From the IMG/VR virus record IMGVR_UViG_3300013121_000023, positions 113,133 through 177,132 of that record: a DNA stretch of 64,000 nucleotides; one strand, 5' to 3'. Under the pieces are notes generated by a model. It did no database searches and was not told the origin of the DNA. It saw only the letters and a list, made by a program, of their open reading frames with translations. Source of the DNA: a virus. Its lineage: Duplodnaviria; Caudoviricetes. This document shows, piece by piece, positions 10,359-34,978 of the stretch (within the stretch, counting starts at the first letter, position 1; every line of letters begins with the position of its first letter). Both the position numbers and the translations under genes were made by a program.

Positions 10359-10655
10359 ATGACAACAGCAGCGCGCATGAGGGATTTGGTGGGCGAATAT
10401 ACCAAAAAAGTCATTAGTGAAAATGAGGAACATATAAATGAAAACTTGCTACCGATATTCCTTAAAGACTTGTATTCTTGCATAGAATCAGCTGCATCTA
10501 AGGGACAGCGCACATACCAACATGCTATAAATCTTACAACCTTGAAGGTGCTGCATTTGGTTGTTCCACAATTGAGAGATCGAGGTTATTTGGTAGAGTA
10601 TATTACTAGTAGTACTACACAGCATCTTATGTACATGAACGTATCTTGGTCATTA
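10359..10655 (+). CDS. Hypothetical protein
   Basis: AAGGAG RBS; TTA at 10653 (standard end 10667). Confidence 0.65.
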
Positions 10656-10660
10656 CTTGG

Positions 10661-10696
10661 TAGCTAAAAAAGAAGAGAGCGAAAGCTCTCTTCTTT
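10661..10696 (-). terminator. Terminator between convergent genes, with TTTAGCTA tail
   Basis: aaagaagagagc-gaaa-gctctcttcttt next to TAGCTAAAAA. Confidence 0.8.
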
Positions 10697-11073
10697 AAAT
10701 ACTTGAATCTATGCGCCTCAATGTATGAGGCCATTACCTCTGCAATGTAGTCGGGGGCAATTCCCCGAAGTGCATTGCGACTGAGCACTTTTGCGGTACC
10801 CTTCCCCCACGGTACCTTCACTGCCTCAATATATGGTTTGCCCTCCCCTTCTGGATGGCGCATTGTTAGCAAGTGTCTCGCTGCCTGCATCAGCAGGGAG
10901 CTTACCTCCTTCGGCTCCTCCAGCCAAAGGATGTGGATTACTGGGTGGTTCAGCACCACCCTCAATTGCTTTATGGTTTCTTCATTTGCAATATCAGTGT
11001 ACCTAGTGCCCTCATGTACGAATGTCCTAATGTCCAACAGGGCCTTCCGAAGGCCCTCTATGTTTTCGTACAT
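10696..11073 (-). CDS. Hypothetical protein
   Basis: AGGAGG RBS; TTA at 10696-10698 directly before the terminator (standard end 10627). Confidence 0.7.
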
Positions 11074-11186
11074 AGTACCTCCTTTCATATATCTTATGCC
11101 ATTTTTACGAATAAATTAAGGTACACATAAGTAATAATCGAGGGGCTAAAGAAATGGAAGGATAGCTCCATCTCTAATAAGTGTTG

Positions 11187-11258
11187 TGCCCCAGAGAGGA
11201 ATCGAACCTCCTTTAGCCTCCTTGTAAGGGAGGTGCCGGACCAGCTGGCTCCTGGGGC
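11187..11258 (-). tRNA. tRNA-Val(UAC), atypical D arm
   Basis: CCTCC CT TAC AA GGAGG; T loop TTCGATT. Confidence 0.8.
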
Positions 11259-11263
11259 AACTG

Positions 11264-11554
11264 TAACTTAGATATATCCAAAGAAAGGGAAATCAGCATA
11301 CCAATGAATTGGTCTCTTCCTTTTTCTACTTCTGTTATGAATTCCGAAACCAATTTGGTTTCGGTCGTGCCATTTGACTCTATTGTCATGTTCATGTTAT
11401 GAAAACATGACGATGCTGAATCTGGCCATATTGTGTGTGATACTTTATTAAACCGTTTGTGGAATAGATGCCACGCATCTCTAAAGCAGTCTGTTACATA
11501 GACCATAACCACCAGTTCTTTTCTTTCTGTGTCCTTTATGAAGTAAACGTTCAT
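11264..11554 (-). CDS. Hypothetical protein in tRNA cluster
   Basis: TTA at 11264-11266 ends it before tRNA-Val; standard end 11213 lies inside the tRNA. Confidence 0.65.
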
Positions 11555-11743: not shown

Positions 11744-11815
11744 AGCCCACTATGGGATTTGAACCCATGACCTACGGTTTACAAAACCGTTGCTCTACCA
11801 CTGAGCTATGTGGGC
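11744..11815 (-). tRNA. tRNA-Thr(UGU)
   Basis: ACGGT TT TGT AA ACCGT. Confidence 0.9.
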
Positions 11816-11818
11816 AGG

Positions 11819-11928
11819 AGCGACAGGCCCGAGTCGAACGGGCGACCAACGGAAAACCGCTGCTCTACGGGGCCATCACCAGACAGAACGTTACTTGTCT
11901 GGCTTGTGACCTACTGAGCTACTGTCGC
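11819..11928 (-). ncRNA. tRNA-like RNA with expanded D loop and truncated anticodon arm
   Basis: Acceptor GCGACAG/CTGTCGC, D stem GCTC/GAGC around about 50 nt, arm GCGG-TTTT-CCGT, normal T arm. Confidence 0.75.
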
Positions 11929-12174: not shown

Positions 12175-12412
12175 ATCTACGCCTTCACTCATATTTCTTA
12201 TTGCGCTATTTATTTGATTTTTTCTTACGGTAGCTAAAAATAGATAGGGTTTGCTGATATAGGAGTAAGTTGGCCCGCCGTCATGATCGCCGTTATACCG
12301 GATGGAGTCTGGAGTACAGCTACTATCAACCGGGCCGAGAAGATAGATTTACAACGAACTGGTGTGGTTCGTATGACTAACGGTCTTTCGGGGCGCCTCA
12401 TCAAGACCGCTG

Positions 12413-12491
12413 TGCTCTTGGCAGGAGTCGAACCTGCAAATAATAAAGCCGCTTTTGAAACGGCCGCGTCTGCCTATTTCGCCACAAGAGC
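12413..12491 (-). tRNA. tRNA-Leu(CAA)
   Basis: GCCGT TT CAA AA GCGGC; Leu-type D arm. Confidence 0.85.
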
Positions 12492-12884: not shown

Positions 12885-12886
12885 GG

Positions 12887-12968
12887 TGCTGAGAGAGGGA
12901 CTCGAACCCTCACGGTTTTACCCGCCGGTACCTAAAACCGGGGCGTCTACCTATTCCGCCACCTCAGC
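12887..12968 (-). tRNA. tRNA-Leu(UAG)
   Basis: CCGGT TT TAG GT ACCGG; long variable arm. Confidence 0.9.
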
Positions 12969-13215: not shown

Positions 13216-13710
13216 TTATAAAGCTCTTCTTTTTTCTTTTGTAAAGAAGTCCAAGAGGTCTTGTGGAGAAGTAGCGCTTGGAACCAAGTCCGCCGAGCCT
13301 GGGTATTTGGCGGCCTTTAGGACGAACACAACGGATTCAGAGCAAAACATTGCGTGAGTGGTGTCAAATGGGTTTCTCCATTTCATTTTTAGCCACTTAC
13401 CTATTTGTACAAAGAATGCGCCTATTAGACCTGTGTAGTCATATCCACCACCTAGCCAATCTGTAGCCACACGCACACCCTCATCTAGCGGTTCTTGCGG
13501 AGTTATTATTTCTACTATGTCGTGTGTTTCTGCAAACCTAGAAAAGGAGGTCAACTTGAATCCTCCCTTTGTAGCTTCCATAACCATGGATTTACCTAGA
13601 AATGCATTTTCTATGATAAGCCATACGTGACTTACACGGCTCTTTGTGACCGCGCGTATGATTCTAGATATGACGTTGTTTTTGCTAGTAGAGAATCCTA
13701 TTCTGACCAC
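13216..13710 (-). CDS. Permuted papain-like (YiiX/NlpC-P60) amidase
   Basis: SHV...YDY...FCSE motif order; ends TTA TAA. Confidence 0.8.
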   Translation of the reverse strand: MVRIGFSTSKNNVISRIIRAVTKSRVSHVWLIIENAFLGKSMVMEATKGGFKLTSFSRFAETHDIVEIITPQEPLDEGVRVATDWLGGGYDYTGLIGAFFVQIGKWLKMKWRNPFDTTHAMFCSESVVFVLKAAKYPGSADLVPSATSPQDLLDFFTKEKRRAL

Positions 13711-14810: not shown

Positions 14811-15455
14811 TTACACCTGCGTAAAGACGAAGATGACATCAAACGCTCCCTGAGTCGTATTTGTCACGAACTTCAGGTGGATACCCTGACCGGCCCTTAT
14901 GGTAATCGGCTTCTGTACAGGGTCTCTCTTAGCTCTAGCTGGCAAGAAGTTGGCGATGGCCTGCTGCGCACCTTCTTGGTCTAGTGTACCAGGGCCCCAC
15001 TCATCAGTAGATATCCTGATGATATCTAGAGGCTGGGCTTCTTCTGTGCCGCCCAATGTAGCACCGGTATGCATCACAATACCTGCGCCAAGAGAATCAT
15101 CCGTATCATGTGCTCTAGGCGTAACAGCCGTACCACCAGTAGGGGCGACTGTATGTGACCACCGTACCAAGTTGAACTGTCCCGCAACGCCTGTAACCGC
15201 CGTAGTTTGGGAATTTCTCAGGTAGTACTCTCGTAGCTTCACTACCTTTGTAGAACCTACGGGATTATACAGAGACAGCATTGACTTGTTGAGAGTCAGA
15301 GCTGCGCCAACGGCGATACTGGTAAACGTAGCTTCTTCCGTAGGGGCCTGTGTAACAGCAAACCTGTACACACCATTATCTAGGATGATGTTTACAGGGT
15401 TGCCGCTGGGATCGCGTACTACGACATCTCCCTCTATTACTGAGAAGGCGCCCAT
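14811..15455 (-). CDS. Putative virion protein
   Basis: T/G/A-rich; structural cluster. Confidence 0.6.
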   Translation of the reverse strand: MGAFSVIEGDVVVRDPSGNPVNIILDNGVYRFAVTQAPTEEATFTSIAVGAALTLNKSMLSLYNPVGSTKVVKLREYYLRNSQTTAVTGVAGQFNLVRWSHTVAPTGGTAVTPRAHDTDDSLGAGIVMHTGATLGGTEEAQPLDIIRISTDEWGPGTLDQEGAQQAIANFLPARAKRDPVQKPITIRAGQGIHLKFVTNTTQGAFDVIFVFTQV

Positions 15456-16000
15456 AACGTCTCCGTGGTGGTGATGCTGGTAACGCTTCCACCTGCTCGT
15501 GTAAACACATGTGTGAGCGTCTGCACCAAAACGCCAGACCCATCGTACTGATTTTCTACTACTTGGCTCACAAGGCCGCCAGTTCTTGTAAGAATAGCCT
15601 CTCGTACTTTTATGAGTTTAGCTGGGCTAGTCCACACAGTAACAGCCGCAACCCTACCGGATGTTCTACTTATTTCCGTGTAACAAGTTTCGGCTAGATC
15701 GTGGACCAGACTATCTATTACTTCATGAGAACCTGGAGTGAGACCACCACCACCTGTAACCATGTCTGTTAGAGACACTGGTGTTGGGTTGGTGCCGTCT
15801 TTGAATTTAAGATCGTTTCCATCCCTGAATATTAGAACGCCGTAGTCTCTATTTGAAGCATCCTGCACATAAAGACCAGCCGACTCCAGAGCGTCCTGTT
15901 GAGGATTTATTCCAGCAGGGTAGGGAAAGTTCTGTGCATCTTGCCCACCATCTGCCGTACTTTCGGTTTTGTATACCTGAACGCGCTCTGGAGTCGGCAT
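15455..16000 (-). CDS. Putative virion protein
   Basis: R(T/A)GG.V beta repeats; TTATG overlap (standard end 15437). Confidence 0.65.
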
Positions 16001-16008
16001 GGCTAACC

Positions 16009-17205
16009 TCAAGGCTTCTTGCCGAAGTCGTGAATCTTGACCATCAGGTCTGTTGTGTTCTTGGCCACTCCTACCAAGACGACGCGATTGCCGCCGCCGG
16101 GTGGAGTTGCTTGTATACCGCCTGTGGGGGCCAAGTAATAATTAGACCCAGCTGTTAGGCCACCAATTGCGATCAAACCGCTGCTGGTGTAGTTTACGGC
16201 CGCAGGGGATGTAACCGCAGCTCTAGCCAGGCCCATGACAAAGGACTTGGCGTCTGTGTCTGCTCTGGCTTTGCCAGCCGTGTTCGCGGTTGTTGTGTAG
16301 TAGATAGGATCGCCTATGGACAGGTTGTCCGCTGTCGCAGAAACAGTATCAGCCACTCTCTTATGATCGTGAATGTCACCAACATAAGATGGTGTTGTGG
16401 AAGTACCGTCTACTAGCAGATTAACGTTTGCAGCAGTAACAGCAGCGCTGGTAGCTACACCGTTTATCTCAAACAGGGAAGGCAGACCCTTGACCGATAT
16501 ACCAGAAGCGCCGATCTGTAGTGTCGTACCATTTAGCTTGATGGCGACACCAGCAGCAGTTACCTGAATGGCGCCAGTAGTGCCATCCGGTTTTACGGCC
16601 AGTTTACCGTTGGGAGATACGCCAACAAACTGTAGACCTGGCGTTGTGTCTAGCTCTACAGAAAATTCGTTACCCGACAGTATAATGCCGTCACCACCTG
16701 TGTAACCGGTGGCACTGGAGAACTGGATAAACGCCAGGTTATTTGTATCTATTACAGCTGGCGCGTCTGTGGTGCAGACCCAAGCTGTGTCTGCGTACAG
16801 TGTTCCCTGTGTAGCCCACACAGCTGTATTTTCTGCGTCGCCGCCAGTAGGGAAGTCGGCCGGTCTAGACCACGCACCGGCCGCAACAACCCAAATACCG
16901 TTTTGAGACGCTGTTGACTGGGCGGTCAAAAGAACGCGGTCACCAGCAGTGGTAGCAATGCTGTCGATGTTTGGAGTACCAGACAGCGACGCGATGTTAG
17001 CTGTAGCTACGAGCTTTACCGGATTTTTCCAAGAAAGACCGTAAACAACGCTGTCTACGTATGCTTTCGTAGCGGCATCTCCAGCGCTTGACGGTGTTCC
17101 AAGGTTGACTACACGACCACCCTGCATATCAAGGTGATCGCCAGACGCGAAGTCAGAGAAATAGTTGTATGTGGCGTCACGGAATACGGGTTTGTTCGTA
17201 GCCAT
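16009..17205 (-). CDS. Head/tail fiber-like virion protein
   Basis: NLGTP..AGDAATKAYVD stalk motif, GDRVLL..Q...QNGIWV module, cement-like C-terminus. Confidence 0.75.
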   Translation of the reverse strand: MATNKPVFRDATYNYFSDFASGDHLDMQGGRVVNLGTPSSAGDAATKAYVDSVVYGLSWKNPVKLVATANIASLSGTPNIDSIATTAGDRVLLTAQSTASQNGIWVVAAGAWSRPADFPTGGDAENTAVWATQGTLYADTAWVCTTDAPAVIDTNNLAFIQFSSATGYTGGDGIILSGNEFSVELDTTPGLQFVGVSPNGKLAVKPDGTTGAIQVTAAGVAIKLNGTTLQIGASGISVKGLPSLFEINGVATSAAVTAANVNLLVDGTSTTPSYVGDIHDHKRVADTVSATADNLSIGDPIYYTTTANTAGKARADTDAKSFVMGLARAAVTSPAAVNYTSSGLIAIGGLTAGSNYYLAPTGGIQATPPGGGNRVVLVGVAKNTTDLMVKIHDFGKKP

Positions 17206-17215
17206 TTGATACCTC

Positions 17216-17626
17216 TTATGGGTGCATGTTTATGCGCCCGGTATCAACATCATACGCTACGTTGTCCCAGTTCCCTATATCGTACTTCTCACCCAAATCT
17301 TTCTTTAGCTTTTCTATTTCGGCGGTTTTGTCTTTTGATTTTTCGTTTAGAAAAGCCACTCGTTCATTTATGCCGCGCATAGTGTGCCCTACTTGAAGCT
17401 CTGTGATACGAGCTTTTAGCTTGGCCACTTCTATGCTCATAGATGCTATTGCAGCATCTTTCTCAAGCATTGACTTGTTCAGCTCTAGGTTGTCCCTTTC
17501 AGTCTCAAGAAGATTTATCTGTAGCAGGTCTTCTTTGCTGAGATATTTAGCTGCTGGTGCATCTACCTCTGGCATTCTTGTGTTGGCGCCTTTCGATGGT
17601 TCCTCTGCAAGCATCACGTCTTCCAT
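17216..17626 (-). CDS. Coiled-coil protein
   Basis: Heptad pattern. Confidence 0.65.
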   Translation of the reverse strand: MEDVMLAEEPSKGANTRMPEVDAPAAKYLSKEDLLQINLLETERDNLELNKSMLEKDAAIASMSIEVAKLKARITELQVGHTMRGINERVAFLNEKSKDKTAEIEKLKKDLGEKYDIGNWDNVAYDVDTGRINMHP

Positions 17627-18102
17627 AACAGTCTCCTGTAAAGCTCTAGTGAAGGTTTCACTATGAGCGTATTTTCGTCCAAAGCCTGACCAAACGTTTG
17701 ATGATAACCAGATGCAGGCGGTGTCGTAGATAGTGTGCCTGTTGCAGATACCCAGTATCTTGCATTTGGCGTAAAACCAGGTTTTTGATAAATGCCGTAT
17801 ATAAGTACGGCTACCTGTATCGGGTTTATGACAGCCGTAACAATACCTATAGCTGGCATTTTATTTATGTCTGACACATCAGCTACGTCCACTGTAGGTA
17901 GGCCACCAGAAGACATGCCAGACACATACACTACGTAGCCAACGCCTGCTGTGGAGTTGTTAGCTACGATGGTTTGGTTCAGGGGCCATAGATTAGCAAG
18001 AATAGCCTTTCTGGTTTCACCAGACTGAACGATTGGAACAAGCTCGGCACCGGTAACAGCCGATGCTGGGTTTAGTTGGCTTATCTTCCTGCTAACCGCC
18101 AT
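17626..18102 (-). CDS. Capsid decoration/cement-like protein
   Basis: KISQL..A...GAELVPIVQ N-terminus; AIGIV..G...Y.VS..G.L...PP; TTATG overlap. Confidence 0.6.
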
Positions 18103-18106
18103 GAGT

Positions 18107-18244
18107 TAACTCTTGCAGCAGATAGCCGCCGTCTTCTTGAACTAGGTCGTCTGTATTTTCACACAGAATATGTCCGCCCTCATCATCTTCATCTCGTACT
18201 TGGTACGGGCGGGCATGTAGGTGGGAATTCGTATGTATCGGCAT
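18107..18244 (-). CDS. 45-aa virion-like peptide, not in the ORF track
   Basis: MPIHT...HILCENTDDLVQEDGGYLLQE; starts in TTATG and ends at TTA. Confidence 0.6.
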
Positions 18245-20820
18245 AACCAGTCATCCTTCTTTTGGGGCGCGCTCCAACCATCGCCTTCTACAGACTCTTC
18301 TAGCTTAGATACCTGTTTGCGCAATCTACGCAACTTAGATATATCGGAGTCTTCTTTCCATTTCTTAGCTGCATCCAACTGAGACAGGGCCATCCTGCTT
18401 ATGTCTCTATCCCATACTGCGTTCGATACTGATTTGCCCAACAAACCAGCTATCTGTGTACCTGCCAATAGAGTTGCTAGTCCCCTAGTTTTTGGATTTT
18501 CAAATCCTCTTACGTAGGCTGGTACGGTCATCAGGGCTGATAGGCCGGCTTTTGGAGCGTTCTCTCTCAGATCTTCCACTGTTTGCCCTAGAAGGGATCT
18601 TCTAGCTACCTCTTCAAGAGCGTTTGCTTTAGCCGGGCTTTTATTAGCCTCAACCGCCAGATTTTTTATTAGACTAGGTGCGTAGCTCTCCGCCATAAGA
18701 CCACCTAGAGCACCAGCACCAGCACCAGCTAGTAGGCTAGTAGCGGTTGGTACAAATAGAGACGATCTTACGGTTCGTTCATCGACGTTTCTGTTGAGAA
18801 GATTGGGTAGCAGCGCACCGCTAAACATCCCCACTACTGGGTTTATAGCGCTAAAACCAACACGACCGGCACTGGCTAGTTGTAGGCGCAGTTTATTTGC
18901 CGCCAATTCGTTCTTACCCTCATCTGTCATCTTAAAGTTGGCGCTACCGGCTGTCTTTAGGAAACCTATAGACTTTTTGAAATCGTCCATAGGAACTGAA
19001 TCTATACGGCCTATTATGGTGTCTTTGTAGGCAGGACTACTGTGAGCTAGAAACATCTTCCTGGCTTCTCCCTCAGAGTTAAATCCTAGCATTACTTTGT
19101 TTTCGTCGAACTTGCCGTTCAACATTTGCTTTATGATGAATGCTTTATCAGCATTTTTGTTCGGGCCTAGATATACGTCTGTCTCCTCTCCGTCTTTGTC
19201 TTTCGTGCCAGGTATAAAGCCGTAGTCTGTCTTGTACTTTCTGGTCCAGGCAGGCAGACCGTTCTTACCGTCAAACTTCTGTAGGAATCCCTTTGGTCTA
19301 TCTACATGGACAGGAATTCCTTGAAATTCAGTTTTCTTGTGTACCTTGTCTGACGCTGTTTTCTCGTGCTGCGGAAGAAGATCTCTGAATTGCTTTATCA
19401 GGTCTTCTTTCTTTTGCGACATATCTGACAAGTACTCGTCAACTGCCTTATCAGGAGTTCTCTTTAGCCACTTTTCATTGAACCTGGTTATCAAACCTTT
19501 TGGCCGAACACCTAGGTAGTGCTCGATCAACACTTTTCTTTCTTCTGGGGGAAGATCTGCGTGGCTGCCGTATCTGGCCGCTCTACCTTCTAGTTGCTTC
19601 AGCTTTTCTCTGTTCCAGTGTGGGTCTAGTATCTGTACCAACCTGGTACCTTTCAGGTCCAACCCCTCACCGCCAGCAGATGACACCAACAGTGCTCGCA
19701 GCTTACCCTCGTTGTAATCACGCACCATTTGGTCTCGTTTACTGTGCGCTATATCACCCGTAAACTCACCGAAAGGTACACCAGCTTCTTGTAGCTTTGC
19801 TTTGTACGGGTTTATGCCCGATTCCAGCCAGTTCGAGTAAACCAGAGCCTTCGCCCTAGGGTTTTCATCGATCATTTTCTTTAGTGTTTCGAAGGCTTTG
19901 TCTATCTTAGGCTGGTGTATGACAGCATCTTCCTTGGAAAGCCCCGCTGTGGTGTTCACAGCTTGTCTGGCCGAACCAAGAAAGTTGTTCATCATGGCAG
20001 ACTCCTGCTTGCTGGGAGGCAGGCCTCTTTTGACCTTTGCGGCCACCCATGGGGGCGCTTGACCCATGAGGGTGTCATATAGCTTCAGCTGGTCAGGAGT
20101 AAGTTCTACCTGTACCTGCTTGGTCTCCACATCGGGAAAGTTGTCTTTTGTCCCCGGATGGTAGTCAACCCATTTACTGAACTTCTGTTTCAGTTCTGGT
20201 GCTTTTCTGTCGTAAAGAACCTGAATCGTTCCAGGCGTAGCTTGGTTTATATGCTTGTCCCAAAAAGACGGCTTCACTACCTTTTCAGTTATGTACGCAG
20301 ATTCGAAGTCTTTTCTGTCGTGCGGCAGTATCTTTGCATTAGCGGCAAGGTTTATGAGTGGAGCTATATCAGCTGGATGATTGTAGAAAGGGCTACCAGT
20401 AAGCAGAAGTCTCTTATCCGCCTGTGCCCCCAAGTTTTTTATTGCTCGAAAGGTAGCGCTACCTATGTCCCTAGCTCTGTGCGCTTCGTCCACAATCATA
20501 AGTGGGTTTTCTTCTGTGGTTCCTTTCGCAGCTAGATTCTGAATGCTCTCTATATGAGCCGGCTGCTTATGCCCCTTCAGATGCTTGGCCCTCTCTTTAG
20601 CGTAGTTGTCCCTAAGCGCGGCTGGAACAACAACGGTGCTAGGTACCCCCAGAGCATCTTGTGCAGCTATGCTTGAAAGAGTCTTACCGCTACCCAGACC
20701 ATGAACAACCAACAACCCAGGTTGGTCTTCTTTCTGAATGCGATCTACTACACGTTGTTGATGAGGCAACAACGGTGTTTTTACCTCAGCTATCTTTAGC
20801 AAATCGTCGAGTAGTCCCAT
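18244..20820 (-). CDS. SNF2-type helicase fused to pyrophosphatase-like and hydrophobic domains
   Basis: HGLGSGKT, DEAH, LLTGSP, GEGLDL, EGRAARYG; DYGFIPGT.DKDGEETDV...DENKVMLGF; standard end 18142. Confidence 0.85.
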
Positions 20821-20843
20821 AAAGGCATCATACCCGATTTGAG

Positions 20844-23657: not shown

Positions 23658-24842
23658 TAATTTTCCCTTTACGGACTCCACTACTGTAGAAGTTATAGAC
23701 TTTGCTGAGTCTATAACTTCCGCTATTTCCATGCCCAGCAGTTGGGCATTGGCCATGGCCTGCATGGCCACGAGCTTGGACAGCGTTTCTCTTACTTCTA
23801 TAGTTTCTTGCACTGTCCTGGCTGTATCATCAGCCATCTTGCTTGTTTCCCTTACAGCCACGGCCATGGAGTTGATAGCTTTGGCGATTTCATTTTGTTG
23901 ATTGAGCATAGCGATTTGAGTTGCCCCCAAATCCTCTAGCTTCTTAGCCATCTCAGATACGATGGCCAATATTTGTTGTGCAGCCCCACTCGCTGGAGCT
24001 GGAGCCGGTGTTGTGGCCTGTGGAACAGGCGGGGCTTCTGCGGCGGCTGGTGCTTCTACAGCCATCTTGGGCTTTCTAAGGCTCTTTTGCGCCGCCGTAG
24101 GCGCCGATGCAACAGACGCCGCTGTGGGCGCGGCTGGTGCGGCTGGTGCGGCTGGGGCCTGAGCGGGTGCTGTGGGTACGGAGGGGGTACTGTCTGCTAC
24201 TTCAGGAAGCACCCTCCCCTCCTTGGATGCATCCACTATGGCCGTTCTGACACTATCTGTAAAAAACTCTTTTCCTTTTGCCCTAAACAACTTTAGGGCC
24301 TGACTGGCGTAACTAACTTTCTTCGGGACTTCTAGCAGTATGAATTGAGGTGTGTAGGCGCCTATAGCGCTCATCATGCCCCTCAAATGTATCGGCGGTA
24401 TTGCCGCCAATACCTTTTCATCCAGCGGGGTTTCCCCAGCCATCTTGATGTATTCTTCCGGTGTCTTTGCTTCAGCTCTAACTGTCATGGTCATGGGCAA
24501 TCTCCTTTTTTGTACGGCTTTTGTGGCCAGAATCTTGTCTTTGTGCTCAGCATTCATAGCCAAGCAAACCAAAACTTGTGCGTCAACGCATTCGTAACAG
24601 GAGTAGGGGTCTCCGCTTGCTGCTGGGCATGTCAGCTGCGGTGATACCTGCCTCCATCTTTCCAGTAGAAAAGACATCAATTTATCTCTGATGCTATCTA
24701 CTGGGTTTCTTTCCCATTCTTCTAGATGTTCGTCGTTTTCTAGAAGAGAGATCAATCTTTCTTTAGCTAGTTCTTCATGGGCATCGTGTCCTAGTGACCT
24801 AGCGACCGTCACTAGCTCTTTTTTGTTAGCTTCTTCAAACAT
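23658..24842 (-). CDS. Hypothetical protein with Cys cluster, Ala/Pro linker and coiled coil
   Basis: Ends G GGA AAA TTA (standard end 23514). Confidence 0.7.
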
Positions 24843-25958: not shown

Positions 25959-26716
25959 GTTCTTCCTTTCGTTAGCTTCACGATAAGATCGTTGTCCATC
26001 TCCCTTTTCAGCAAATAAGGAGGCTCGCATACCCACGAGTATTTACAGAACTCGCAGTGCGATCCATCCATTTTGATAGGTAGTGTTTTCTTTCTTTTAT
26101 GTTCATGAAATGAGAGTATTCTTTTGTATATCCTATCCCACAGCTTTTCATCGAAATCTACGAGATAGGCACCTTTGGAATTTGTTATTACCTGGCTGTT
26201 CTTGTTGTAATAAAGAAACCACATATGGCTAAGGCCGAGACACGCCATGTATACGTGTCCCTGTTCTATGTGGTCTGGCTGAGGACCAGACAGAATCTTG
26301 AATCCGTCGTTTGATATGGTCTTTATCTCTAGACCTACTCTTATGGGCTTACCTTCAGTGTGGAAAGTAAACACACCATCGCAGCTGGATACTATATCCA
26401 GCTCCTTAGCTATGGCACTAGTACTTGAGTCTATTCGCACTTCGGCTTCAAAAGACATGTATATATCTGGCGATTCGTTAGCCATGTCTTTAAACTGTCG
26501 CTGAAGCATATCGTGTACAGCGTGTCCTAGATCGAACCTACGCTTCCACATAACAGGCGTATGCCCGCGCTTCTCTTCACCTATCATTGTGTACACAGCT
26601 TGTCTGTGACACTTAGATATTTCCGAGGCATGTACGCCAGCATCTCTTTTGTCTTGGTCTTTCCTTTTAAGGAAATCATCGTATCTGTCACTTAGGCTTT
26701 CTATTAGACTTCTCAT
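25955..26716 (-). CDS. Cas4-like PD-(D/E)XK exonuclease
   Basis: HASEI.KC.R, G..H, D..EIKT, Q...YM, C..C.Y...C. Confidence 0.85.
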   Translation of the reverse strand: MRSLIESLSDRYDDFLKRKDQDKRDAGVHASEISKCHRQAVYTMIGEEKRGHTPVMWKRRFDLGHAVHDMLQRQFKDMANESPDIYMSFEAEVRIDSSTSAIAKELDIVSSCDGVFTFHTEGKPIRVGLEIKTISNDGFKILSGPQPDHIEQGHVYMACLGLSHMWFLYYNKNSQVITNSKGAYLVDFDEKLWDRIYKRILSFHEHKRKKTLPIKMDGSHCEFCKYSWVCEPPYLLKREMDNDLIVKLTKGRT

Positions 26717-27254
26717 CCGTATCTCCTATAGCTTTCAACCAGTCAGACTTTGACATGATTACGTAGGACTCGTCAGCGTCTCCGGTAGCTCTGTTAACGA
26801 ATTCAACTACTAGAGCTGACTTTTCATTACCTTTTGTAGCTGATTGAGCTTTGTGTAGAAGCCCTTTTGATACGCGGAAACTGTCAGCGGTCTGTACGCT
26901 TTTAAGCTCTACATTCCACTTACCTTTTTTGCGTACGTCTCCTTTGGCCCTAGGCGTAGCCCCTGATGCTGGTTGAAGCTTACCGCCAATTTCCTCGGCG
27001 AGTATCTTCTCTCGCTTCGTAGCTACCTTCCTTGTCCTGTGATCTGGGGCTATTCTACCCTTCTTCTTTTCTACGTTTATGTCAGAGAACTCCATACCTA
27101 TAGGTCTTGATACAATGCAGCCGCGACAGCAAACAAGCTCAGCTATGTCTGCTACCGTTTGTGCAGTTAGAAGATACGAATCAGCACGTTCTCTACCGCA
27201 AATAGGACAAGTACCGCTTTCAGGGAATACTTGTATGGTAAACGAAAACGACAT
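26688..27254 (-). CDS. PD-(D/E)XK resolvase-like nuclease with Zn ribbon
   Basis: CPIC..C..C; E..LA..GG..QPASGA..KGDV..VELKS. Confidence 0.7.
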   Translation of the reverse strand: MSFSFTIQVFPESGTCPICGRERADSYLLTAQTVADIAELVCCRGCIVSRPIGMEFSDINVEKKKGRIAPDHRTRKVATKREKILAEEIGGKLQPASGATPRAKGDVRKKGKWNVELKSVQTADSFRVSKGLLHKAQSATKGNEKSALVVEFVNRATGDADESYVIMSKSDWLKAIGDTDEKSNRKPK

Positions 27255-28465: not shown

Positions 28466-28533
28466 GTTGGCTCCTAAAAGAAACAACCCCTCTCCCATAA
28501 AAACTTATGACAGAGGGGTTGATTTGTTTTCGT

Positions 28534-28728
28534 TAAACGATTTATTGTCTCGAACGGCTCTGTACCACAGTTGTTGCACACCAGTACCCTGCCATGAACT
28601 TCCGGCCTGCTACCGCACTTAGGGCACTTATAAACGTCGGATGCAGTCTTAACACCTCTGTCGGTAGTTCCCATGGCCGTTTCATCGACCCCGTACTTAG
28701 ACATTTCCTCTTCCGATTTAGGTAGCAT
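28534..28728 (-). CDS. Small Zn-ribbon protein
   Basis: CPKCG...CNNCGT; TTA end (standard end 28474). Confidence 0.65.
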
Positions 28729-28961
28729 TCTTTCTTATCCTCCTTTGAGAGCCTGGTATAGAGGCTACCATAGCATTTTTTACCAGACCTTACCAGGTGC
28801 GCGACTCTTGGTATATTCACGAATTTACGTTTTCGTATTTCGTGATTAATGATGGCCGCTATAGCATCATATACCAATGTCACGGTATCTATATCTGTCG
28901 CAGATCTCTCAGATACCCGCTTCAGAAACTCTTTTTCGTTCTTTTGTATCTTACCTATCAT
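28650..28961 (-). CDS. HU/IHF-like DNA-binding protein
   Basis: EFL..VSE.S......V..V..AI...I...I....V.I pattern; first TTA at 28650. Confidence 0.55.
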
Positions 28962-30910
28962 TTAGCTTCCGCCCAGCTCTTACCTTTAGCGGCAGATGTA
29001 GTTAGCGGTACAGCTAGATCTGTAGGAAACGGATGTTCCATGGTTTCCTTTATGATTGGTAGACATATATCTACATATTCATCAGGGCACTCGAACACAA
29101 GTTCGTCATGTACCTGAACTAGCATTTTGCAGCCGTATTTTTTCTTCAGTCCTAGAGCTTCTACCTTAAGCATTGCGCACATAGCTACGTCAGCGGCAGA
29201 CCCTTGTATAGGAGCATTGCTAGCCTGTCTTTGCGCTCTGCTTATGTCAGACCTTTTGAGTGACCGAAGCTCTTTAAGGTACCTTCTACGTCCAAGAACA
29301 GTAAAGGCGTATCCGTAGGTAACTGCTTCTTCAACAGCGGATTGAAAGAAGTGCTTAACAGCCGGATATCTACCCAGGTATAGCTCGATAAGGCCTTCGG
29401 CCTTATCCACCGTGCAGCCTATTCTGGACGCCAGAGAATTGGCTCCCATCCCGTAATTTAGACCAAACCCTATTGCCTTAGCTGCTTGCCTAGCCCACAT
29501 GATTCTTTCTATTTCATGCAATTGCTGAGGTGTTATTGTTTTCGCAAGGTCACCAGTTTTGTCCTGCTTTAGCGCACCTTCTGTTTTCTTAGCCCAAATG
29601 AAGTCTTTATAAGTTATCTCTCTCTTCAACTCATCGCTTAGTATTGGGCCGAATACCAGTTCGGCGTTACCCATATGTATGTCTTTGCCCTCCAAAAAGA
29701 TGGCAATCATATCTGGCTCCATGGCGGCTGCCGCCAGTAGCCTCATCTCAAGCTGTTCGTAGTCTATAACTATGAGACTACAGTTTTCACTGGATATGAA
29801 AGCTTTGCGCATACCAAATTTATCTGAGTCTGGTCTTGGTATGTTTTGTACGTTTATGTTGCTTGAGCTAAGTCTTCCAGTTCTGGCTATGTCTTGGTTA
29901 AATCTGTAGCCTACTCTACCGTTAATCAGCATCTTATCTATGCCGTAAACGTAGGTTTTTAGTATCTTGCTGAGTTTCCTGTGCCTCACCACTATCGGTA
30001 CTATGGGATCTTTATCTGCTATTTCATCAAGTGTCTTTTTGTCTACGGATTTATTACCTGATTTAGTCTTTATACCTCTTTCTTCAAAAAGATATTTCGC
30101 TAGCTGTTGGTTGGAAGAAATATTGATTGGCTTACCAGCTATTTTCCAAGCTTCCTTTTCTATGGAAGCTATTTCATCCAGCATTGGTTTTTCTAGGTCT
30201 TTTAGTTTCTTTGTGTCTACTTTAAATCTGTTTCTTTCGCATTCGTACAGCACCTTTGTAAAAGGTGCGCACAACATGAAGAAGTATTCCAGAAGAGTAG
30301 GGTACTTATCAGGGTATAGCGAGTAAGTATTGGCCTCTTCTAGTTCTTGCAACAACGCATAGTATAGCTTCAAAGTTCCGTAGGCGTCGTTTGCTGTGTA
30401 CTCAACAAGTGCGCTTTTATTCTTGCGCTCCATTTCCATAAGTAGGTCTAGAGGTCTGCTTCCTTCCTCTTTGCCGATCTTGCCAAATGTGGATTCAAAA
30501 CTACGCCATGTCCACCCCAGTATTTGGTGAGTCATTTCTTTAAGGCCGTGTGGTTTTTCCTCATATAGCAAGGCGTGCATGACTGATACGTCTGCTATCG
30601 TACCCTCCAGCCAAACCCCACAATTCTGTAGCATGTGCATATCGAATTTGGCGTTGCACATGATCCATATTTTGTTTGGGTCTGTGAACGCCTCTTTGAA
30701 GAATGGAAAAGTACTTGCCGGCATACTTATTCGACGGTCTGCGAAAGCTATGGACCAGTAGTAAGCCCTATCACGAGCCGTATCTAGACCGGATGTCTCT
30801 GTGTCTATTGCTATCTCTACGGCCGAATTCACATCCACTACAAGTTTGTCTATATCGTGCGATGTCAAATCAAACCATTCGGCATCTGGTAGTTCTACAT
30901 TCCATGCCAT
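28958..30910 (-). CDS. DNA polymerase family A with 3'-5' exonuclease
   Basis: DTETSGL, NAKFD, TGRLSS..N.QNIP, DYEQLEMR, K...FG..YG, IQGSAAD, VHDE. Confidence 0.95.
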   Translation of the reverse strand: MAWNVELPDAEWFDLTSHDIDKLVVDVNSAVEIAIDTETSGLDTARDRAYYWSIAFADRRISMPASTFPFFKEAFTDPNKIWIMCNAKFDMHMLQNCGVWLEGTIADVSVMHALLYEEKPHGLKEMTHQILGWTWRSFESTFGKIGKEEGSRPLDLLMEMERKNKSALVEYTANDAYGTLKLYYALLQELEEANTYSLYPDKYPTLLEYFFMLCAPFTKVLYECERNRFKVDTKKLKDLEKPMLDEIASIEKEAWKIAGKPINISSNQQLAKYLFEERGIKTKSGNKSVDKKTLDEIADKDPIVPIVVRHRKLSKILKTYVYGIDKMLINGRVGYRFNQDIARTGRLSSSNINVQNIPRPDSDKFGMRKAFISSENCSLIVIDYEQLEMRLLAAAAMEPDMIAIFLEGKDIHMGNAELVFGPILSDELKREITYKDFIWAKKTEGALKQDKTGDLAKTITPQQLHEIERIMWARQAAKAIGFGLNYGMGANSLASRIGCTVDKAEGLIELYLGRYPAVKHFFQSAVEEAVTYGYAFTVLGRRRYLKELRSLKRSDISRAQRQASNAPIQGSAADVAMCAMLKVEALGLKKKYGCKMLVQVHDELVFECPDEYVDICLPIIKETMEHPFPTDLAVPLTTSAAKGKSWAEAK

Positions 30911-30924
30911 AGAAACCTCGTAGG

Positions 30925-30960
30925 TAAAAAAGAAAAGGGCCCGCTTAGCAGGCCCTCTTC
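30925..30960 (-). terminator. Intrinsic terminator
   Basis: gagggcctgc/gcgggccctt stem plus T-run. Confidence 0.6.
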
Positions 30961-30978
30961 TCGTCTCTGTTCGTTTAA

Positions 30979-32193
30979 TAACTCAACAGATTCTTCGTCG
31001 TCGTCCTCTACAGTTCGATCTTCAAAATGTACCGGTGTGCCTTCTTCTGGTGATGGCTCTCCGTACACATTGATCTGGTCGCTCCAGCTATCTGGCACGT
31101 ATACCCTTGGAAAATCAAAGGGTACAGCCATCTTGCTGTATTTTGGATCTATAACAGAAGGCGCCGATATACGAACCATGTCTAGCTGGGTCTTCTTGGT
31201 TTGTGGCTGCCCAGGATTCCCTGGATCAGTTACTACCGTTCGTATATCTATGTCTACGTCAAACAACGATGCTCTTCTGGCATCATTGCATTGAGTACAC
31301 CAGAACTTCTCTTGCAGTAGACCGATGTTTTTGCACTTAGGGCAATTATAGGGTCTGCTGGTTAGAGCAGATATCTGCTCGTCTGTTAGCGAGGTGCTGG
31401 TCAAGTCTATGATTGGGTTATCACAGTTTGAGCACAGCCACATTGTGGTTTCTATGCTCTGCTGAGAGCCACACGATGTGCAATCATTCTCAACAGAGCT
31501 ATTCTTTTCCAGCAAGTACTGATGCTGCAATTTGGACAGCTTGAATGGGCGCATCATCGCGTCCACAACCTTCGCTGACATTTGGCAGTGCTGGCAACCT
31601 CTACCCACACATGGCTCCCATGTCATGTATGGTTGGTTGGTCCTCGGGTTTACCTTTATCTGCTTCGTTTTGAAGTCAGTTTGAGGTACCTCGTGATATT
31701 TGTGTATGTGTAGAACATTCCATACATACTTGTGGGATTTACTTACATAACCAGCTTCAACATTTGAATTTTTGAACTCATAAAATATGTCGCAACCTCT
31801 ACACGGCTTTCTGTGCTCTCTAGTAAAGTGCAGAGGTCCGCCGCTACATATGGTTGATTTCTTGTTTCTTGCGTTGTAATGCTGAACAAACTTAAAGAAT
31901 TCGGATTCTGTTTCATACAGTTCGAATCCCCAAGAACCGTCTTCGCGGTCTACCCTACTCGGTATCTGCAACTTATAAGAACCCCGTATGAGGCGTATCT
32001 TGTCGCTTTTACCGGCCAGTTCAGTCGGTCTGAAGCCGGGATCGTATTTAGATAGGAACGGTCCCTGTCTGGTACCGCCGCCGCCAGACATAGCGGCTAG
32101 CGCTCTTTCTCGCTGTGACAGCGAAAGCGAGCCGGGCTTAATTCCGTACTTATCCAGCTTGTTCAACACGTTTGGATCTTTCCCGAATGACAT
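30979..32193 (-). CDS. Putative single-stranded DNA-binding protein, Zn-rich
   Basis: Multiple CxxC, acidic tail ending TTA TTA (standard end 30895); position in replication operon. Confidence 0.6.
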
Positions 32194-33184
32194 GAAACTC
32201 TTTTCCTTTTCTGTTTTCCAAAACCCAATTTATCAGAGGTTTCGGTGTCTCATACGATGACTGTATATCAAACTCACTCAAATCATCTGGTTGTTCTACT
32301 TGTTTCAGATACGGCAAAAAATAGACAGATGTTGTGAGTGACAATCTTGCTGCTGCGTCTATGGAGCCTTTTATACCTGCGTCGTTGTTGTCTAGCATCA
32401 AGTATATAGGACAACCCATACGGGTTAGCAACCATTCTTGCTCAAACGTTAGCATTGAGCCGAGTAGTGCTACTGTGTTCCTTATACCAGATTGGTGAAG
32501 TTTCATGCACGCCTTGAATCCTTCGACCAACACAACAGGAGGGGATTTGTTAGTAAAAAACACCTCTGGGTAAACTCTGTGAAAGTTCCAGAGTATGTGG
32601 CTTTTGACTATCTCTCTCCTAGCTAGACCCCATTGTAGGTACTCGGTGTCATATAGTTTGTATCTTGGCGCTTGCCCTGGCATTACTGCTCGGCCAGATA
32701 TACCCTCCAATCTTCCCCTGAAGTCTCTCAGTGGGAAAGTTATACGCATGTTCTTTTTATCGAATCCTACATCAAAGTAGGAAAGCGTTTCTCTGTTGAA
32801 TCCGCTTTTAACCAGGTCCAGTGGTGTGTAGTCAAATAGACCCAGCACGGACTCAGATAGAGGTTCTAGTGTGACCACATTGGGTCTCACACTGCTTTTG
32901 TCAGGTGGTGTTGCCTCTTCCAGTTCTTCCAGAAGAAACCTGTATTGCCTGTTTACTACATCCCTGGAACCACCCAGCTTGCACAGTAGGTTTCTAAACG
33001 TCCCTTTCTCGTGACACGAGAAGCAGAAGAATAGGCCGTTTACTAGGGATATAGCCAACGTGTGCGTTACTACGCTACCCATTGTATGAAATGGGCATGT
33101 CACCTGTACGTTGTTTGGACCAGATCTCTTTACATAGCCGAACCTGTTTTCTATTATTTGGTAAACTTCTTCTCTCGCAGACAT
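32150..33184 (-). CDS. DnaG-type primase
   Basis: CPFH..CFSC Zn finger; TOPRIM VEG, DND.AG. Confidence 0.92.
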   Translation of the reverse strand: MSAREEVYQIIENRFGYVKRSGPNNVQVTCPFHTMGSVVTHTLAISLVNGLFFCFSCHEKGTFRNLLCKLGGSRDVVNRQYRFLLEELEEATPPDKSSVRPNVVTLEPLSESVLGLFDYTPLDLVKSGFNRETLSYFDVGFDKKNMRITFPLRDFRGRLEGISGRAVMPGQAPRYKLYDTEYLQWGLARREIVKSHILWNFHRVYPEVFFTNKSPPVVLVEGFKACMKLHQSGIRNTVALLGSMLTFEQEWLLTRMGCPIYLMLDNNDAGIKGSIDAAARLSLTTSVYFLPYLKQVEQPDDLSEFDIQSSYETPKPLINWVLENRKGKEFHVIRERSKRVEQAG

Positions 33185-34623
33185 AATAGACCGTCTATGT
33201 TTTCTGGTACGATATCTTTAAGGGCTTGTTCAAGCTCTGTTTCTTTTTTGGACTTGCCTTTCTTCTTAGCTATTTTGTTAGCCACCTCTTCTGTCAGTTC
33301 TTCTTTAAGAGCTTCTTGATCGTCTCTTGTTTTCTCTGTTTCAATAGCGTACTTATTCAAAACCTCTATAAACTCAAAGTTAGTACATGGTTTTGCATGA
33401 ATCTTAAAACCATCCAGGCTGTACTCACGGGCACCGCCTACACTCAGAGTGATAGTTCTATCTATGTAGTTAGGTATGGACCTAGCGAATAGGGTTGCGT
33501 CTTGAGCGATAGCATCGCTGTATCCAATATCAGAGCTAGACGCTTCCTCTTTTTTGTCTGCCGTTCTATTTGCCTGTGTTGTTCCGATGATAGGTACGCC
33601 AAAGTCGAGCGGTATGCCGCGCAAGCTTCTGGAGATGCCCATAACTCTTTGCCACTCTTGTGCTCTGGATGAGCCTTCATCGGAAGACATCAGGTAGAAA
33701 CCGTCGATACCTACTACAGAAGGCTTGTAGTGGTTTATCTTGCTCCTTATCCACATCGGTGTGTCCTTGCCCACACCAACGTCTCTACCAGACAGAACTA
33801 TGATGTCATTGTATCCATTAGATGCGGCTTTCTTTTCGTTCAGAACGTCTTTGAATTGGTAGAACGTATCTCTCATATCGCTGTTCAAGCGACCGAATTT
33901 TACGTCTCCGTAAGCCGCTCTGATATAGAAAGCAGCTATGCGCATCAGTATATTCTTGGGTGTCATTTCTTTGGTATATATGACCACCCTATGTCCTATC
34001 GCGTACGCGAAGGCCAACAAATAGCAGAGAACAAACGTTTTCATGCTTTTTGGTCTTCCGTATATGACGTTAAAATCGGCTCCTTCTATGCCGCCGGTTA
34101 TGTTCGTCACATCGCTCCACGGCCAAGGTAGAACACAATTGGTTTCTCCACTTGCCAGTTTGTCGTAGTCGAACAGTATCTCATCGAACATGTCTGAGAA
34201 TGTATGGTCTGTTCTTCTAGACGAGTTCTCTTGAACTATCTCTTGCGAAATAGTCAGGAGTAGCTGAGCTGCGTATACTGGATCGTCATCTTTTGCAGCG
34301 GCTACTTTTAGCAGCAAGTCTTGAACTGATATTCTGGCTTTTGCTTTTTTGACTTCGTGTATTATTGCATCGATAGTCATGCTTTCGTCATCAACAAGAT
34401 CGTACGAGGGGAAGTACTCGTTCATCATGTTGGGGCCGAAAACGGCTAGTTTGGTGGTTGGGTTTTTAGCGTAGTCGCACAGGGTGAAGAATATGGCCTT
34501 ATCACTTGCCGTACCCATGTGCTCAGCAGTGATACCTTCTTCGAGCACATGGGTCAGTAGGTCGAAAGCTTTGCCACCGCTACCGATTATCTTAGACAAA
34601 AGTATAGTAGACGGACTAGCCAT
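33184..34623 (-). CDS. DnaB-like replicative helicase
   Basis: GRPKSMKT, EM, IDG, QANR, SD.I.QDA; TTATG overlap. Confidence 0.88.
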
Positions 34624-34666
34624 GAGGCTCCTTTCTAGACCAGAAAGCCCCCTTTCGGGGGCTTTT

Positions 34667-34978
34667 TAAACCTGGCTCGGGTTCTTTGCTGGCCCAAGCG
34701 GCAACGATGCCAGACTCGCTGCTTGATGCGCTGGTGGGCCCATCGAACAAGACACGTAGTACATCTTGTTCGTAGCTGGCGAGAAACTTTTGGAAAAGTT
34801 CTTTGGTCTCATCGCTCATGACAGCGCTGGTGCCGTGGGAGAACGCCATAGTACCACCCGTTTTTGTATTTACAAGGGCCGTTCTGACAGACACGGAGAA
34901 GCCCCCGTGTTCGTGCTTGAACTCACCGTCATAAACCACCACAGCATCAAATTTTGGTATCCCAGATATAGGTGTCAC
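34667..34978 (-). CDS. Hypothetical protein
   Basis: TTA directly before hairpin at 34644-34666 (standard end 34616). Confidence 0.6.

What the first reader, a model, noticed from the sequence alone, without database searches (positions are those of the whole stretch)
10627..34669. Standard-code ORF tails run through terminators, a promoter and a tRNA; TTA removes each conflict
TTA falls immediately before hairpins at 10696 and 34667 (also 248), a few codons before the terminator at 30979 (TTA TTA after the acidic tail), 5 nt before tRNA-Val (11264) and before the recA promoter motif (28534). It is adjacent to canonical stops at 13219 (TTA TAA) and 8642 (TTA TGA). If TTA were Leu, some of these mRNAs would end without a stop.
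Basis: partly seen in the sequence, partly recalled or inferred. Interest (0 to 1): 0.8.

Follow-up and report, generated by a model that had tools for sequence, protein, structure and literature searches.

The report
Leucine codon TTA ends phage genes
In this 177-kb phage from sludge and soil the leucine codon TTA is never used inside genes but sits exactly where genes should end, so it very probably works as a fourth stop codon, a change of the genetic code that the literature I searched describes only for mitochondria and plastids.

Summary
All eight named sites are as described. The window is the last 64 kb of a complete 177,132-bp phage (46% GC). Gene bodies hold 4 in-frame TTA among 4,441 leucine codons, and all 4 lie at gene borders followed by a ribosome-binding site and ATG. 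TTA is 85-fold enriched in the last 20 codons of standard-code ORFs; the next codon reaches 2.7-fold. 51 of 190 ORFs reach a TTA shortly before their canonical stop. That TTA overlaps the next gene's ATG (TTATG, 12 cases), sits directly before a strong hairpin with a U-run, or lies 5 nt before tRNA-Val. Eleven RecA homologs end at the residue before TTA. The nearest syntenic relative has TAA at two orthologous junctions, with the same 1-nt and 16-nt overlaps. Relatives read TTA as Leu. Contigs from four other studies carry the same TTA wherever the output let me check. The phage has no tRNA for UUA and no release-factor gene, so the agent of termination is inferred: probably a host release factor, or UUA is unassigned. 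The scan noted the same thing in other windows of this genome and in other phages. My paper searches found no report of UUA as a stop in phages.

The parts
248..250 (+). TTA ending the PTH2-domain (peptidyl-tRNA hydrolase 2) gene; hairpin 252-275 and a U-run follow; the canonical stop is only at 344-346
   Evidence: the Pfam PF01981 profile reaches position 106 of 115 six residues before TTA; hairpin -21.0 kcal/mol, z -6.3
8642..8644 (+). TTA followed by TGA; its A is the first base of the next ORF's first ATG (TTATG; ORF 8644-9213)
10696..10698 (-). TTA ending gene 10696-11088 (start is the ATG after an AAAGGAGG Shine-Dalgarno, near 11073); terminator stem 10696-10669; the canonical TAA lies 23 codons further, at 10627
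11264..11266 (-). TTA ending gene 11264-11554, 5 nt before tRNA-Val (11186-11258); the standard-code ORF would run 46 nt into the tRNA
13219..13221 (-). TTA directly followed by TAA (tandem)
15455..15457 (-). TTATG: TTA overlaps the ATG of the next gene (14811-15455)
17626..17628 (-). TTATG: TTA overlaps the ATG of the next gene (17216-17626), after an AGGAG Shine-Dalgarno
18244..18246 (-). TTA ending the SNF2-helicase/pyrophosphatase gene (18244-20820); TTATG opens a 45-aa ORF (18107-18244)
23658..23660 (-). TTA ending the 413-aa gene 23658-24899; an in-frame GTG ORF of 43 aa follows, then a strong terminator at 23510-23479
27239..27241 (-). TTA ending the RecA-like gene (27239-28465); 16-nt overlap with the next gene's ATG at 27254
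   Evidence: 11 homologs end at the residue before TTA; the relative L003 has TAA with the same 16-nt overlap
28534..28536 (-). TTA ending the 64-aa zinc-ribbon gene (28534-28728); hairpin 28521-28484, then the recA Shine-Dalgarno and ATG 28465
30976..30981 (-). TTA TTA ending the 404-aa gene (30979-32193); terminator stem 30962-30930; the canonical stop at 30895 lies inside the DNA polymerase gene
33184..33186 (-). TTATG junction of the DnaB-like helicase (33184-34623) and primase (32150-33184)
   Evidence: the orthologous junction in L003 is TAATG
34667..34669 (-). TTA ending gene 34667-34978; hairpin 34665-34644
42112..42114 (+). a further TTA gene end outside the finding's span; others begin at 53308 and 56293 (+) and at 44854, 57976 and 59222 (-)
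12412..12491 (-). phage tRNA-Leu(CAA), which reads UUG but not UUA; also tRNA-Leu(UAG) at 12885-12968; there is no tRNA-Leu(UAA) anywhere in the genome

Best explanation
In this phage and its unknown host, UUA is not decoded as leucine. It marks the end of translation, as a fourth stop codon beside UAA, UAG and UGA, and about 27% of the genes end with it.

Shown: (1) the phage has purged TTA from every gene body; (2) it places TTA where stops belong; (3) it carries tRNA-Leu(CAA) and tRNA-Leu(UAG) but no tRNA that reads UUA.

Inferred: termination is most likely carried out by a release factor with widened second-base tolerance. This would be RF2-like, as in every published UUA=stop organelle. 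The phage has no recognisable release-factor gene, so the factor would belong to the host. The host would then either use the same code or at least lack a working tRNA-Leu(UAA).

Termination at UUAUG overlaps would couple translation of neighbouring genes, as UAAUG does elsewhere.
For: Codon statistics:
- 4 TTA among 4,441 Leu codons in gene bodies, against 440-1,139 for each other Leu codon.
- A related phage at 44% GC has TTA 80 against TTG 77.
- TTA alone is 85-fold enriched in ORF tails.
- Tails after TTA lose the coding signal: -0.08 against +0.20 log-odds per codon.

Anatomy:
- 12 true TTATG stop/start overlaps, against 1 TAATG.
- Hairpin plus U-run directly after TTA.
- tRNA-Val begins 5 nt after a TTA.
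- The interior TTAs, at three gene borders, are each followed by a ribosome-binding site and an in-frame ATG. One lies 2 residues after the end of the tail-sheath profile match, another ahead of a sigma-factor gene.

Homology:
- 11 RecA homologs end at the residue before TTA.
- No BLAST alignment to relatives crosses a tail TTA.
- The PTH2 profile match ends six residues before TTA.
- L003 has TAATG and a 16-nt-overlap TAA where this phage has TTATG and a 16-nt-overlap TTA.
- Interior TTA codons in relatives align with Leu here, including the polymerase motif RTGRLSSS.

TTA behaves like the other stops: the distance to the next in-frame canonical stop has a median of 8 codons, against 10 after canonical stops (p = 0.33).

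Not an artefact: the same sequence turns up in runs of 12 studies. Contigs of four of them were laid on 15000-34900. They show no difference at the TTA sites 15455-57, 18244-46, 30976-81 and 34667-69.

Precedent: UUA=stop through mutated RF2 or RF1 in organelles (PMC12574857).
Against: - There are no RNA-end, ribosome or protein data.
- The host is unknown, so neither its tRNA-Leu(UAA) nor its release factors could be inspected.
- No release-factor domain was found in the phage (proteome-wide Pfam scans).
- No relative closer than 46% protein identity was found (46% for the polymerase, 39% for RecA), and none of the relatives examined shares the trait. The change therefore cannot be traced on a tree.
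- The strong preference for TTATG over TAATG, and the phage PTH2 gene, would also fit a stall-and-rescue mechanism rather than factor-mediated release.
Confidence: 0.85

Rival explanations
1. UUA is an unassigned or 'hungry' codon rather than a factor-read stop. The host lacks or withholds tRNA-Leu(UAA), as Streptomyces does with bldA in vegetative growth. Ribosomes stall at UUA and are resolved by rescue, or by peptidyl-tRNA drop-off followed by hydrolysis (phage PTH2), or they restart at the overlapping AUG. The functional outcome is the same (genes end at TTA) but the mechanism differs.
For: - The phage tRNA set supplies AUA, AGA, CUA, GUA, ACA, AAA and UUG but not UUA.
- The phage encodes a PTH2 hydrolase, itself ended by TTA.
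- TTATG is favoured 12 to 1 over TAATG.
- UUA stalling and bypass are proposed for Streptomyces and phage phiHau3 (PMC10732093).
Against: - About a quarter of all genes, including the tail sheath, depend on it. Stalling would tie up ribosomes, and tmRNA tagging would destroy the products (my own knowledge of these pathways).
- There is no excess of back-up stops.
- PTH2 genes also occur in standard-looking large phages such as Mycobacterium cluster C and XacN1.
Confidence: 0.3
2. The phage itself turns UUA into a terminator during infection, for instance by destroying host tRNA-Leu(UAA) while supplying tRNA-Leu(CAA). Host messages with internal UUA would then be truncated while its own TTA-free genes are read.
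For: The phage carries tRNA-Leu(CAA) and (UAG) but avoids an anticodon that reads UUA. TTA is avoided throughout the genome.
Against: No nuclease, RNA-repair or release-factor family was recognised in the proteome. TTA-ended genes lie in all modules, including the block of small, early-looking genes at 38-57 kb, so UUA termination would have to work from the start of infection. That timing argument is inference.
Confidence: 0.1
3. TTA is simply a very rare Leu codon and the C-terminal tails are translated, possibly as a regulated extension of the bldA type.
For: TTA is the rarest codon in many high-GC systems. Five TTAs sit directly before a canonical stop, where the two readings cannot be told apart.
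Against: Tails overlap the next gene's start, terminators and a tRNA. They lack a coding signal and are absent from all homologs. Sheath and tube would be fused. Rarity does not explain 85-fold terminal enrichment.
Confidence: 0.04
4. UUA triggers bypassing or frameshifting, so that neighbouring genes are made as fusions (phiHau3-type hop).
For: The TTATG geometry would allow a +2 shift into the next frame. There is a precedent hypothesis in PMC10732093.
Against: After TTA come full Shine-Dalgarno sites with start codons, or terminators, not short coding gaps inside one conserved protein. In relatives the partners are separate genes with canonical stops.
Confidence: 0.04
5. Artefact: assembly or sequencing error, or systematic TAA-to-TTA miscalls.
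For: None found.
Against: Contigs from four other studies agree at the TTA sites 15455-57, 18244-46, 30976-81 and 34667-69. An error model cannot remove TTA from the coding frame while leaving it common out of frame.
Confidence: 0.01

Closest known systems
UUA = stop in organelles: NCBI table 23 (Thraustochytrium and other labyrinthulean mitochondria), peDinoflagellate plastids (UUA/UCA), Marsupiomonadales and Pseudoscourfieldia mitochondria (UUA/UUG) (PMC12574857)
   Same: The same codon undergoes the same change, Leu to stop. The bioinformatic signature is the same: no in-frame UUA inside genes, and UUA where homologs terminate. It is used beside the canonical stops for a large share of genes.
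   Different: Those are tiny organelle genomes whose own RF2 or RF1 carries diagnostic substitutions. Here it is a 177-kb phage translated by a bacterial host. No release factor is available to inspect. UUG and UCA remain ordinary sense codons.
Stop-codon-recoded phages (TAG or TGA read as an amino acid; Lak and crAss-like phages; bioRxiv 10.1101/2021.08.26.457843)
   Same: A phage whose genes cannot be called correctly with table 11. It also carries a suppressor-type tRNA(CUA).
   Different: The direction is opposite (sense to stop, not stop to sense). TAG here is a working stop with terminators behind it, and genes are not interrupted by TAG or TGA.
Rare UUA / bldA tRNA control in Streptomyces, and proposed UUA-triggered bypassing in the phage phiHau3 terminase (PMC10732093)
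   Same: UUA is the one codon the translation system cannot readily read, and a phage exploits it.
   Different: There UUA is still Leu when bldA tRNA is present, occurs a few times, and heads 7-10-nt gaps inside one gene. Here it closes a quarter of all genes and is followed by starts or terminators. An actinobacterial host is not shown.
Unassigned codons in bacteria (AGA/AUA in Micrococcus luteus, CGG in Mycoplasma capricolum; from my own knowledge, not checked here)
   Same: A sense codon with no decoding tRNA behaves as nonsense.
   Different: Those codons are merely absent from genes. They are not used systematically as gene ends.

Membership tests
Genetic code with UUA = stop (table 23 type) | No in-frame UUA inside conserved coding sequence | tested here: met
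   4 of 4,441 Leu codons, all at gene borders; 4 of 25,408 interior codons
Genetic code with UUA = stop (table 23 type) | UUA stands where homologs have their stop codon or C-terminus | tested here: met
   RecA against 11 homologs; TAA in L003 at two orthologous junctions; ends of the PTH2 and sheath profiles
Genetic code with UUA = stop (table 23 type) | No tRNA that decodes UUA in the translation system | tested here: inconclusive
   None in the phage, even with relaxed ARAGORN settings; the host is unknown
Genetic code with UUA = stop (table 23 type) | Release factor with an altered codon-recognition region (RF2 Ser204-type or RF1a changes) | not testable with these tools
   No RF-1 domain in the phage; the host genome is not identified
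Genetic code with UUA = stop (table 23 type) | Protein or ribosome evidence of termination at UUA | not testable with these tools
Stop-codon-recoded phage (TAG or TGA as sense) | In-frame TAG or TGA inside genes; ORFs open only under code 15 or 4 | tested here: not met
   ORFs are contiguous under table 11; TAG is followed by terminators or new starts
Stop-codon-recoded phage (TAG or TGA as sense) | Phage-encoded suppressor tRNA | tested here: met
   tRNA(CUA) at 22281-22353, 67.5 bits
UUA-triggered translational bypass (phiHau3 terminase type) | UUA followed by a short non-coding gap inside one conserved protein, changing the frame | tested here: not met
   Interior TTAs are followed by a Shine-Dalgarno site and an in-frame ATG, and separate distinct proteins

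The most novel reading that the evidence does not exclude
The code change is a weapon. The phage itself makes UUA unreadable on infection, for example by removing host tRNA-Leu(UAA) while bringing tRNA-Leu(CAA) and (UAG). Host proteins with internal UUA are then cut short while the phage's TTA-free genes, ended by TTA, are made normally. A slightly less exotic variant is that the unknown host bacterium itself uses UUA as a stop. That would be the first sense-to-stop code in a free-living organism.
Probability: 0.12. Interest if true: 0.95.

Novelty: new variant of a known kind. Interest (0 to 1): 0.88.

Why it matters
Every natural code change so far described in bacteria and phages turns a stop into a sense codon or swaps one amino acid for another. 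A sense codon becoming a stop is published only for organelles (PMC12574857).

If it holds, three things follow:
- Sense-to-stop reassignment can arise in a bacterial-type cytoplasmic translation system.
- Somewhere there is probably a bacterial release factor, or a rescue route, that handles UUA.
- Standard gene callers mis-annotate such phages. Here about a quarter of the proteins get false tails, and sheath and tube, or a sigma factor and its neighbour, appear fused.

Screens such as Codetta, as I understand them, infer amino-acid meanings from profile alignments and would not call a stop, so more cases may be hidden. The phage occurs at over 99% identity in sludge, soil, digester and wetland metagenomes. 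That makes it findable for experiments.

Tried and rejected
- blastn of 5.7 kb against GenBank phages gave no match. The polymerase has at most 31% identity to cultured phages, so the host cannot be inferred.
- The search for related loci in viral contigs found only two relatives (46% and 35% identity). In genome contigs it found only two distant MAG contigs, binned as Myxococcales and Leptolyngbyaceae, which is no host evidence. None shares the trait.
- Searching for a phage-borne agent found no RF-1 domain, no bacterial Pth, and no tRNA(UAA) or tmRNA under relaxed ARAGORN settings.
- Rfam at E <= 1 in the tRNA block showed only tRNAs and a sub-threshold YrlA-like hit.
- The Pfam scans of the predicted proteome added nothing related to translation except PTH2.
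- PTH2 as a specific partner of UUA termination is weakened, because homologs occur in ordinary large phages.
- The idea that 'TTA A' hides a shifted TAA is rejected: only 6 of 51 TTAs are followed by A.
- The idea that TAG is recoded because of tRNA(CUA) is rejected.
- Selection for back-up stops after TTA was not seen.
- Five literature searches found no paper on UUA as a stop in phages.
Full report
**What the window is.** The window is the last 64 kb of a single-contig IMG/VR virus record. The record is 177,132 bp long, has direct terminal repeats, is rated 100% complete and has 46% GC. The span of the finding holds a tRNA block and a minus-strand replication module:
- ten tRNAs in all: Lys-UUU, Val-UAC, Met-CAU, Thr-UGU, Ile-UAU, Arg-UCU, Leu-CAA, Leu-UAG, Tyr-GUA, and an isolated tRNA with anticodon CUA;
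- a DnaB-like helicase, a primase, a family-A DNA polymerase, a RecA-like protein, RusA, a dCTP deaminase and an SNF2 helicase.

Elsewhere the phage encodes a multisubunit RNA polymerase, sigma factors, a tail sheath and a terminase.

**The observation.**
- On the minus strand, TTA at 10698-10696 runs directly into a 14-bp hairpin and a U-run.
- TTA at 34669-34667 precedes a GC-rich hairpin.
- TTA TTA at 30981-30976 follows an acidic stretch, and a 15-bp hairpin with a U-run comes after it.
- TTA at 11266-11264 is 5 nt from the 5' end of tRNA-Val.
- TTA at 28536-28534 ends a 64-residue zinc-ribbon ORF, ahead of a long hairpin and the recA ribosome-binding site.
- TTA TAA is at 13221-13216.
- On the plus strand, TTA at 248-250 precedes a hairpin.
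- TTA TGA is at 8642-8647.

The five hairpins fold at -17.4 to -27.5 kcal/mol, with z-scores from -2.6 to -6.3. Only one detail needs correcting. The element after 28534 is terminator-like and is followed by the recA start. I could not show a promoter there.

**More than chance.**
- In ORFs of at least 200 codons, interior TTA occurs 16 times in 32,399 codons, while each other Leu codon occurs 260-674 times.
- After a cleaner gene set was built, gene bodies hold 4 TTA among 4,441 Leu codons.
- The trinucleotide is common out of frame (2,214 and 2,346 per strand), so the avoidance is specific to the codon.
- I applied the same test to all 61 sense codons. TTA is 85-fold enriched in the last 20 codons of standard-code ORFs relative to their interior. 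The runner-up reaches 2.65-fold.
- 51 of 190 ORFs carry a TTA within their last 48 codons.
- The remaining in-frame TTAs lie upstream of plausible starts or at three gene borders (genome 19638, 24958/24976 and 74024). Each border TTA is followed by a Shine-Dalgarno sequence and an in-frame ATG.
- One of these borders separates the tail sheath from the next gene, and the PHROG sheath profile match ends two residues before the TTA. Another precedes a sigma-70 region-3 protein.

**What follows the terminal TTA.**
- In 12 gene pairs the A of TTA is the first base of the next gene's ATG (TTATG). The usual TAATG occurs once and ATGA 24 times.
- A script found 11 TTAs followed within 21 nt by a hairpin and U-run. 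In 7 of these the stem ends before the next in-frame canonical stop. The PTH2 gene and the zinc-ribbon gene add two more, which I read and folded by hand.
This rests on predicted terminators.
- Codons after TTA lose the coding signal (-0.08 against +0.20 log-odds per codon).
- Under 'TTA = stop' the minus-strand gene chain from 36.4 kb to 10.7 kb becomes tidy.

**Homology.**
- The RecA-like ORF was searched against 5.8 billion proteins. The closest relative is only 39% identical. All eleven aligned homologs end with the conserved C..YR motif, exactly at the residue before TTA. The 24-residue tail is unique.
- BLAST of all ORFs against the contigs of relatives gave no alignment that crosses a tail TTA.
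- The PTH2 profile match ends six residues before TTA at 248.
- The nearest syntenic relative (L003, 59% GC) gives the cleanest comparison. Its DnaB/primase junction reads TAATG where this phage reads TTATG. Its RecA ends in TAA, overlapping the next gene by 16 nt, and this phage has TTA with the same 16-nt overlap.
- Interior TTA codons of relatives align with Leu in this phage, including the polymerase motif RTGRLSSS.
- A related contig of similar GC uses TTA as often as TTG.

The relatives therefore read TTA as Leu, and the change is specific to this lineage.

**Not an artefact.** Near-identical sequence is present in runs of 12 studies, from activated sludge, soil, anaerobic digester and wetland, 2019-2025. 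Contigs of four such studies were laid on 15000-34900. They show no difference at the TTA sites 15455-57, 18244-46, 30976-81 and 34667-69, and no insertions or deletions. A further 62 differences were not printed, so I cannot speak for every site (for example 27239-41 in run X13).

**Mechanism.** That TTA ends translation of these genes is well supported. How it does so is inference.
- The phage has no tRNA able to read UUA, even under relaxed search settings. It supplies UUG decoding with a CAA anticodon, which leaves UUA unread.
- It has no release-factor domain and no bacterial Pth. Pfam scans over the predicted proteome found nothing translation-related except a PTH2-type peptidyl-tRNA hydrolase at the window's start, itself ended by TTA.
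- PTH2 homologs also occur in ordinary large phages, so it is not a specific clue.
- In every published case UUA=stop goes with a mutated RF2 or RF1 (PMC12574857).
- TTA here behaves like any other stop: there is no excess of back-up stops (median 8 against 10 codons, p = 0.33), it ends the tail sheath and replication genes alike, and it occurs in all genome modules.

I therefore favour release by a host factor with widened specificity. The main rival is that UUA is simply unassigned in the host, as in vegetative Streptomyces lacking active bldA tRNA (PMC10732093), and that stalled ribosomes are rescued or restart at the overlapping AUG. The 12:1 preference for TTATG over TAATG fits that idea somewhat better. 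The host could not be identified.

**Comparison with what is known.** The closest known systems are the organelle codes with UUA=stop: table 23, peDinoflagellate plastids and Marsupiomonadales mitochondria. The two sequence-level criteria are met. The tRNA criterion is met only for the phage, and the release-factor criterion cannot be tested. It is not a stop-recoded phage of the TAG/TGA type: TAG is a working stop with terminators behind it, although a tRNA(CUA) is present. It is not phiHau3-type bypassing. Five literature searches found no report of UUA as a stop in a phage or bacterium.

**Earlier notes of this scan.** Notes on other windows of this genome, and on at least three other phage genomes, reached the same reading. 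They are unchecked AI notes. I used them only as leads (PTH2, sheath/tube, sigma) and tested those here.

**Verdict.** It is a new variant of a known kind of code change, and of high interest.

Noticed in passing
window 22281-22353 (-): A well-formed tRNA with anticodon CUA (amber suppressor type, 67.5 bits) in a phage where TAG works as a normal stop with terminators behind it (22 genes). Its target is unknown.
   Followed up: partly
L006:1495-1806 (genome 113071-113382; window up to 250): The PTH2 domain begins one codon after the in-frame TAG that ends the preceding 215-aa ORF. It could be made by read-through with the phage tRNA(CUA), or from a GTG four codons after the TAG, behind a GAGGG Shine-Dalgarno site. 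Which applies is not resolved.
   Followed up: partly
window 10660, 12230, 20843, 38412, 44007, 57519, 62676 (all -): The motif TTTAGCTAC occurs 7 times (0.8 expected, and 0 of 100 shuffles reach 7), always on the minus strand. At the copies I read it follows a terminator U-run. It may be a promoter element for the phage's own RNA polymerase or sigma factors.
   Followed up: partly
window 45665-52072 (+): A single 2,136-residue ORF is the probable source of the Rpb2 domain 6 and Rpb1 domain 2 and 5 matches found among the 27 proteins scanned. That would make it a fused beta/beta'-like multisubunit RNA polymerase. The scan output did not say which protein matched.
   Followed up: no
whole genome: ATA is the commonest Ile codon (1,091 against 378 ATC and 330 ATT). 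AGA, CTA, GTA and ACA are also favoured, matching the phage's own tRNAs. This suggests a host that reads A-ending codons poorly.
   Followed up: no
window 27000-34800: Near-identical sequence turns up in runs of 12 studies, from sludge, soil, digester and wetland, over 2019-2025. In the four studies laid, most contigs are at least 99% identical. That is unusually wide for an uncultured phage with no close relatives.
   Followed up: partly
window 28650-28961 (-) and 28534-28728 (-): An HU-like 103-aa ORF (ending at TTA 28652-28650) overlaps the start of the zinc-ribbon ORF by 79 nt in another frame. It is the one untidy junction left under TTA=stop.
   Followed up: partly
window 18244-20820 (-): The SNF2 helicase is fused to an inorganic-pyrophosphatase-like domain (PF18823). 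In relatives these are separate proteins (L004 515 aa, L002 204 aa).
   Followed up: no
window 11757-11866 (-): A sub-threshold YrlA (Y RNA-like) match (28.7 bits against a 69-bit cut-off) overlaps tRNA-Thr in the tRNA block.
   Followed up: no
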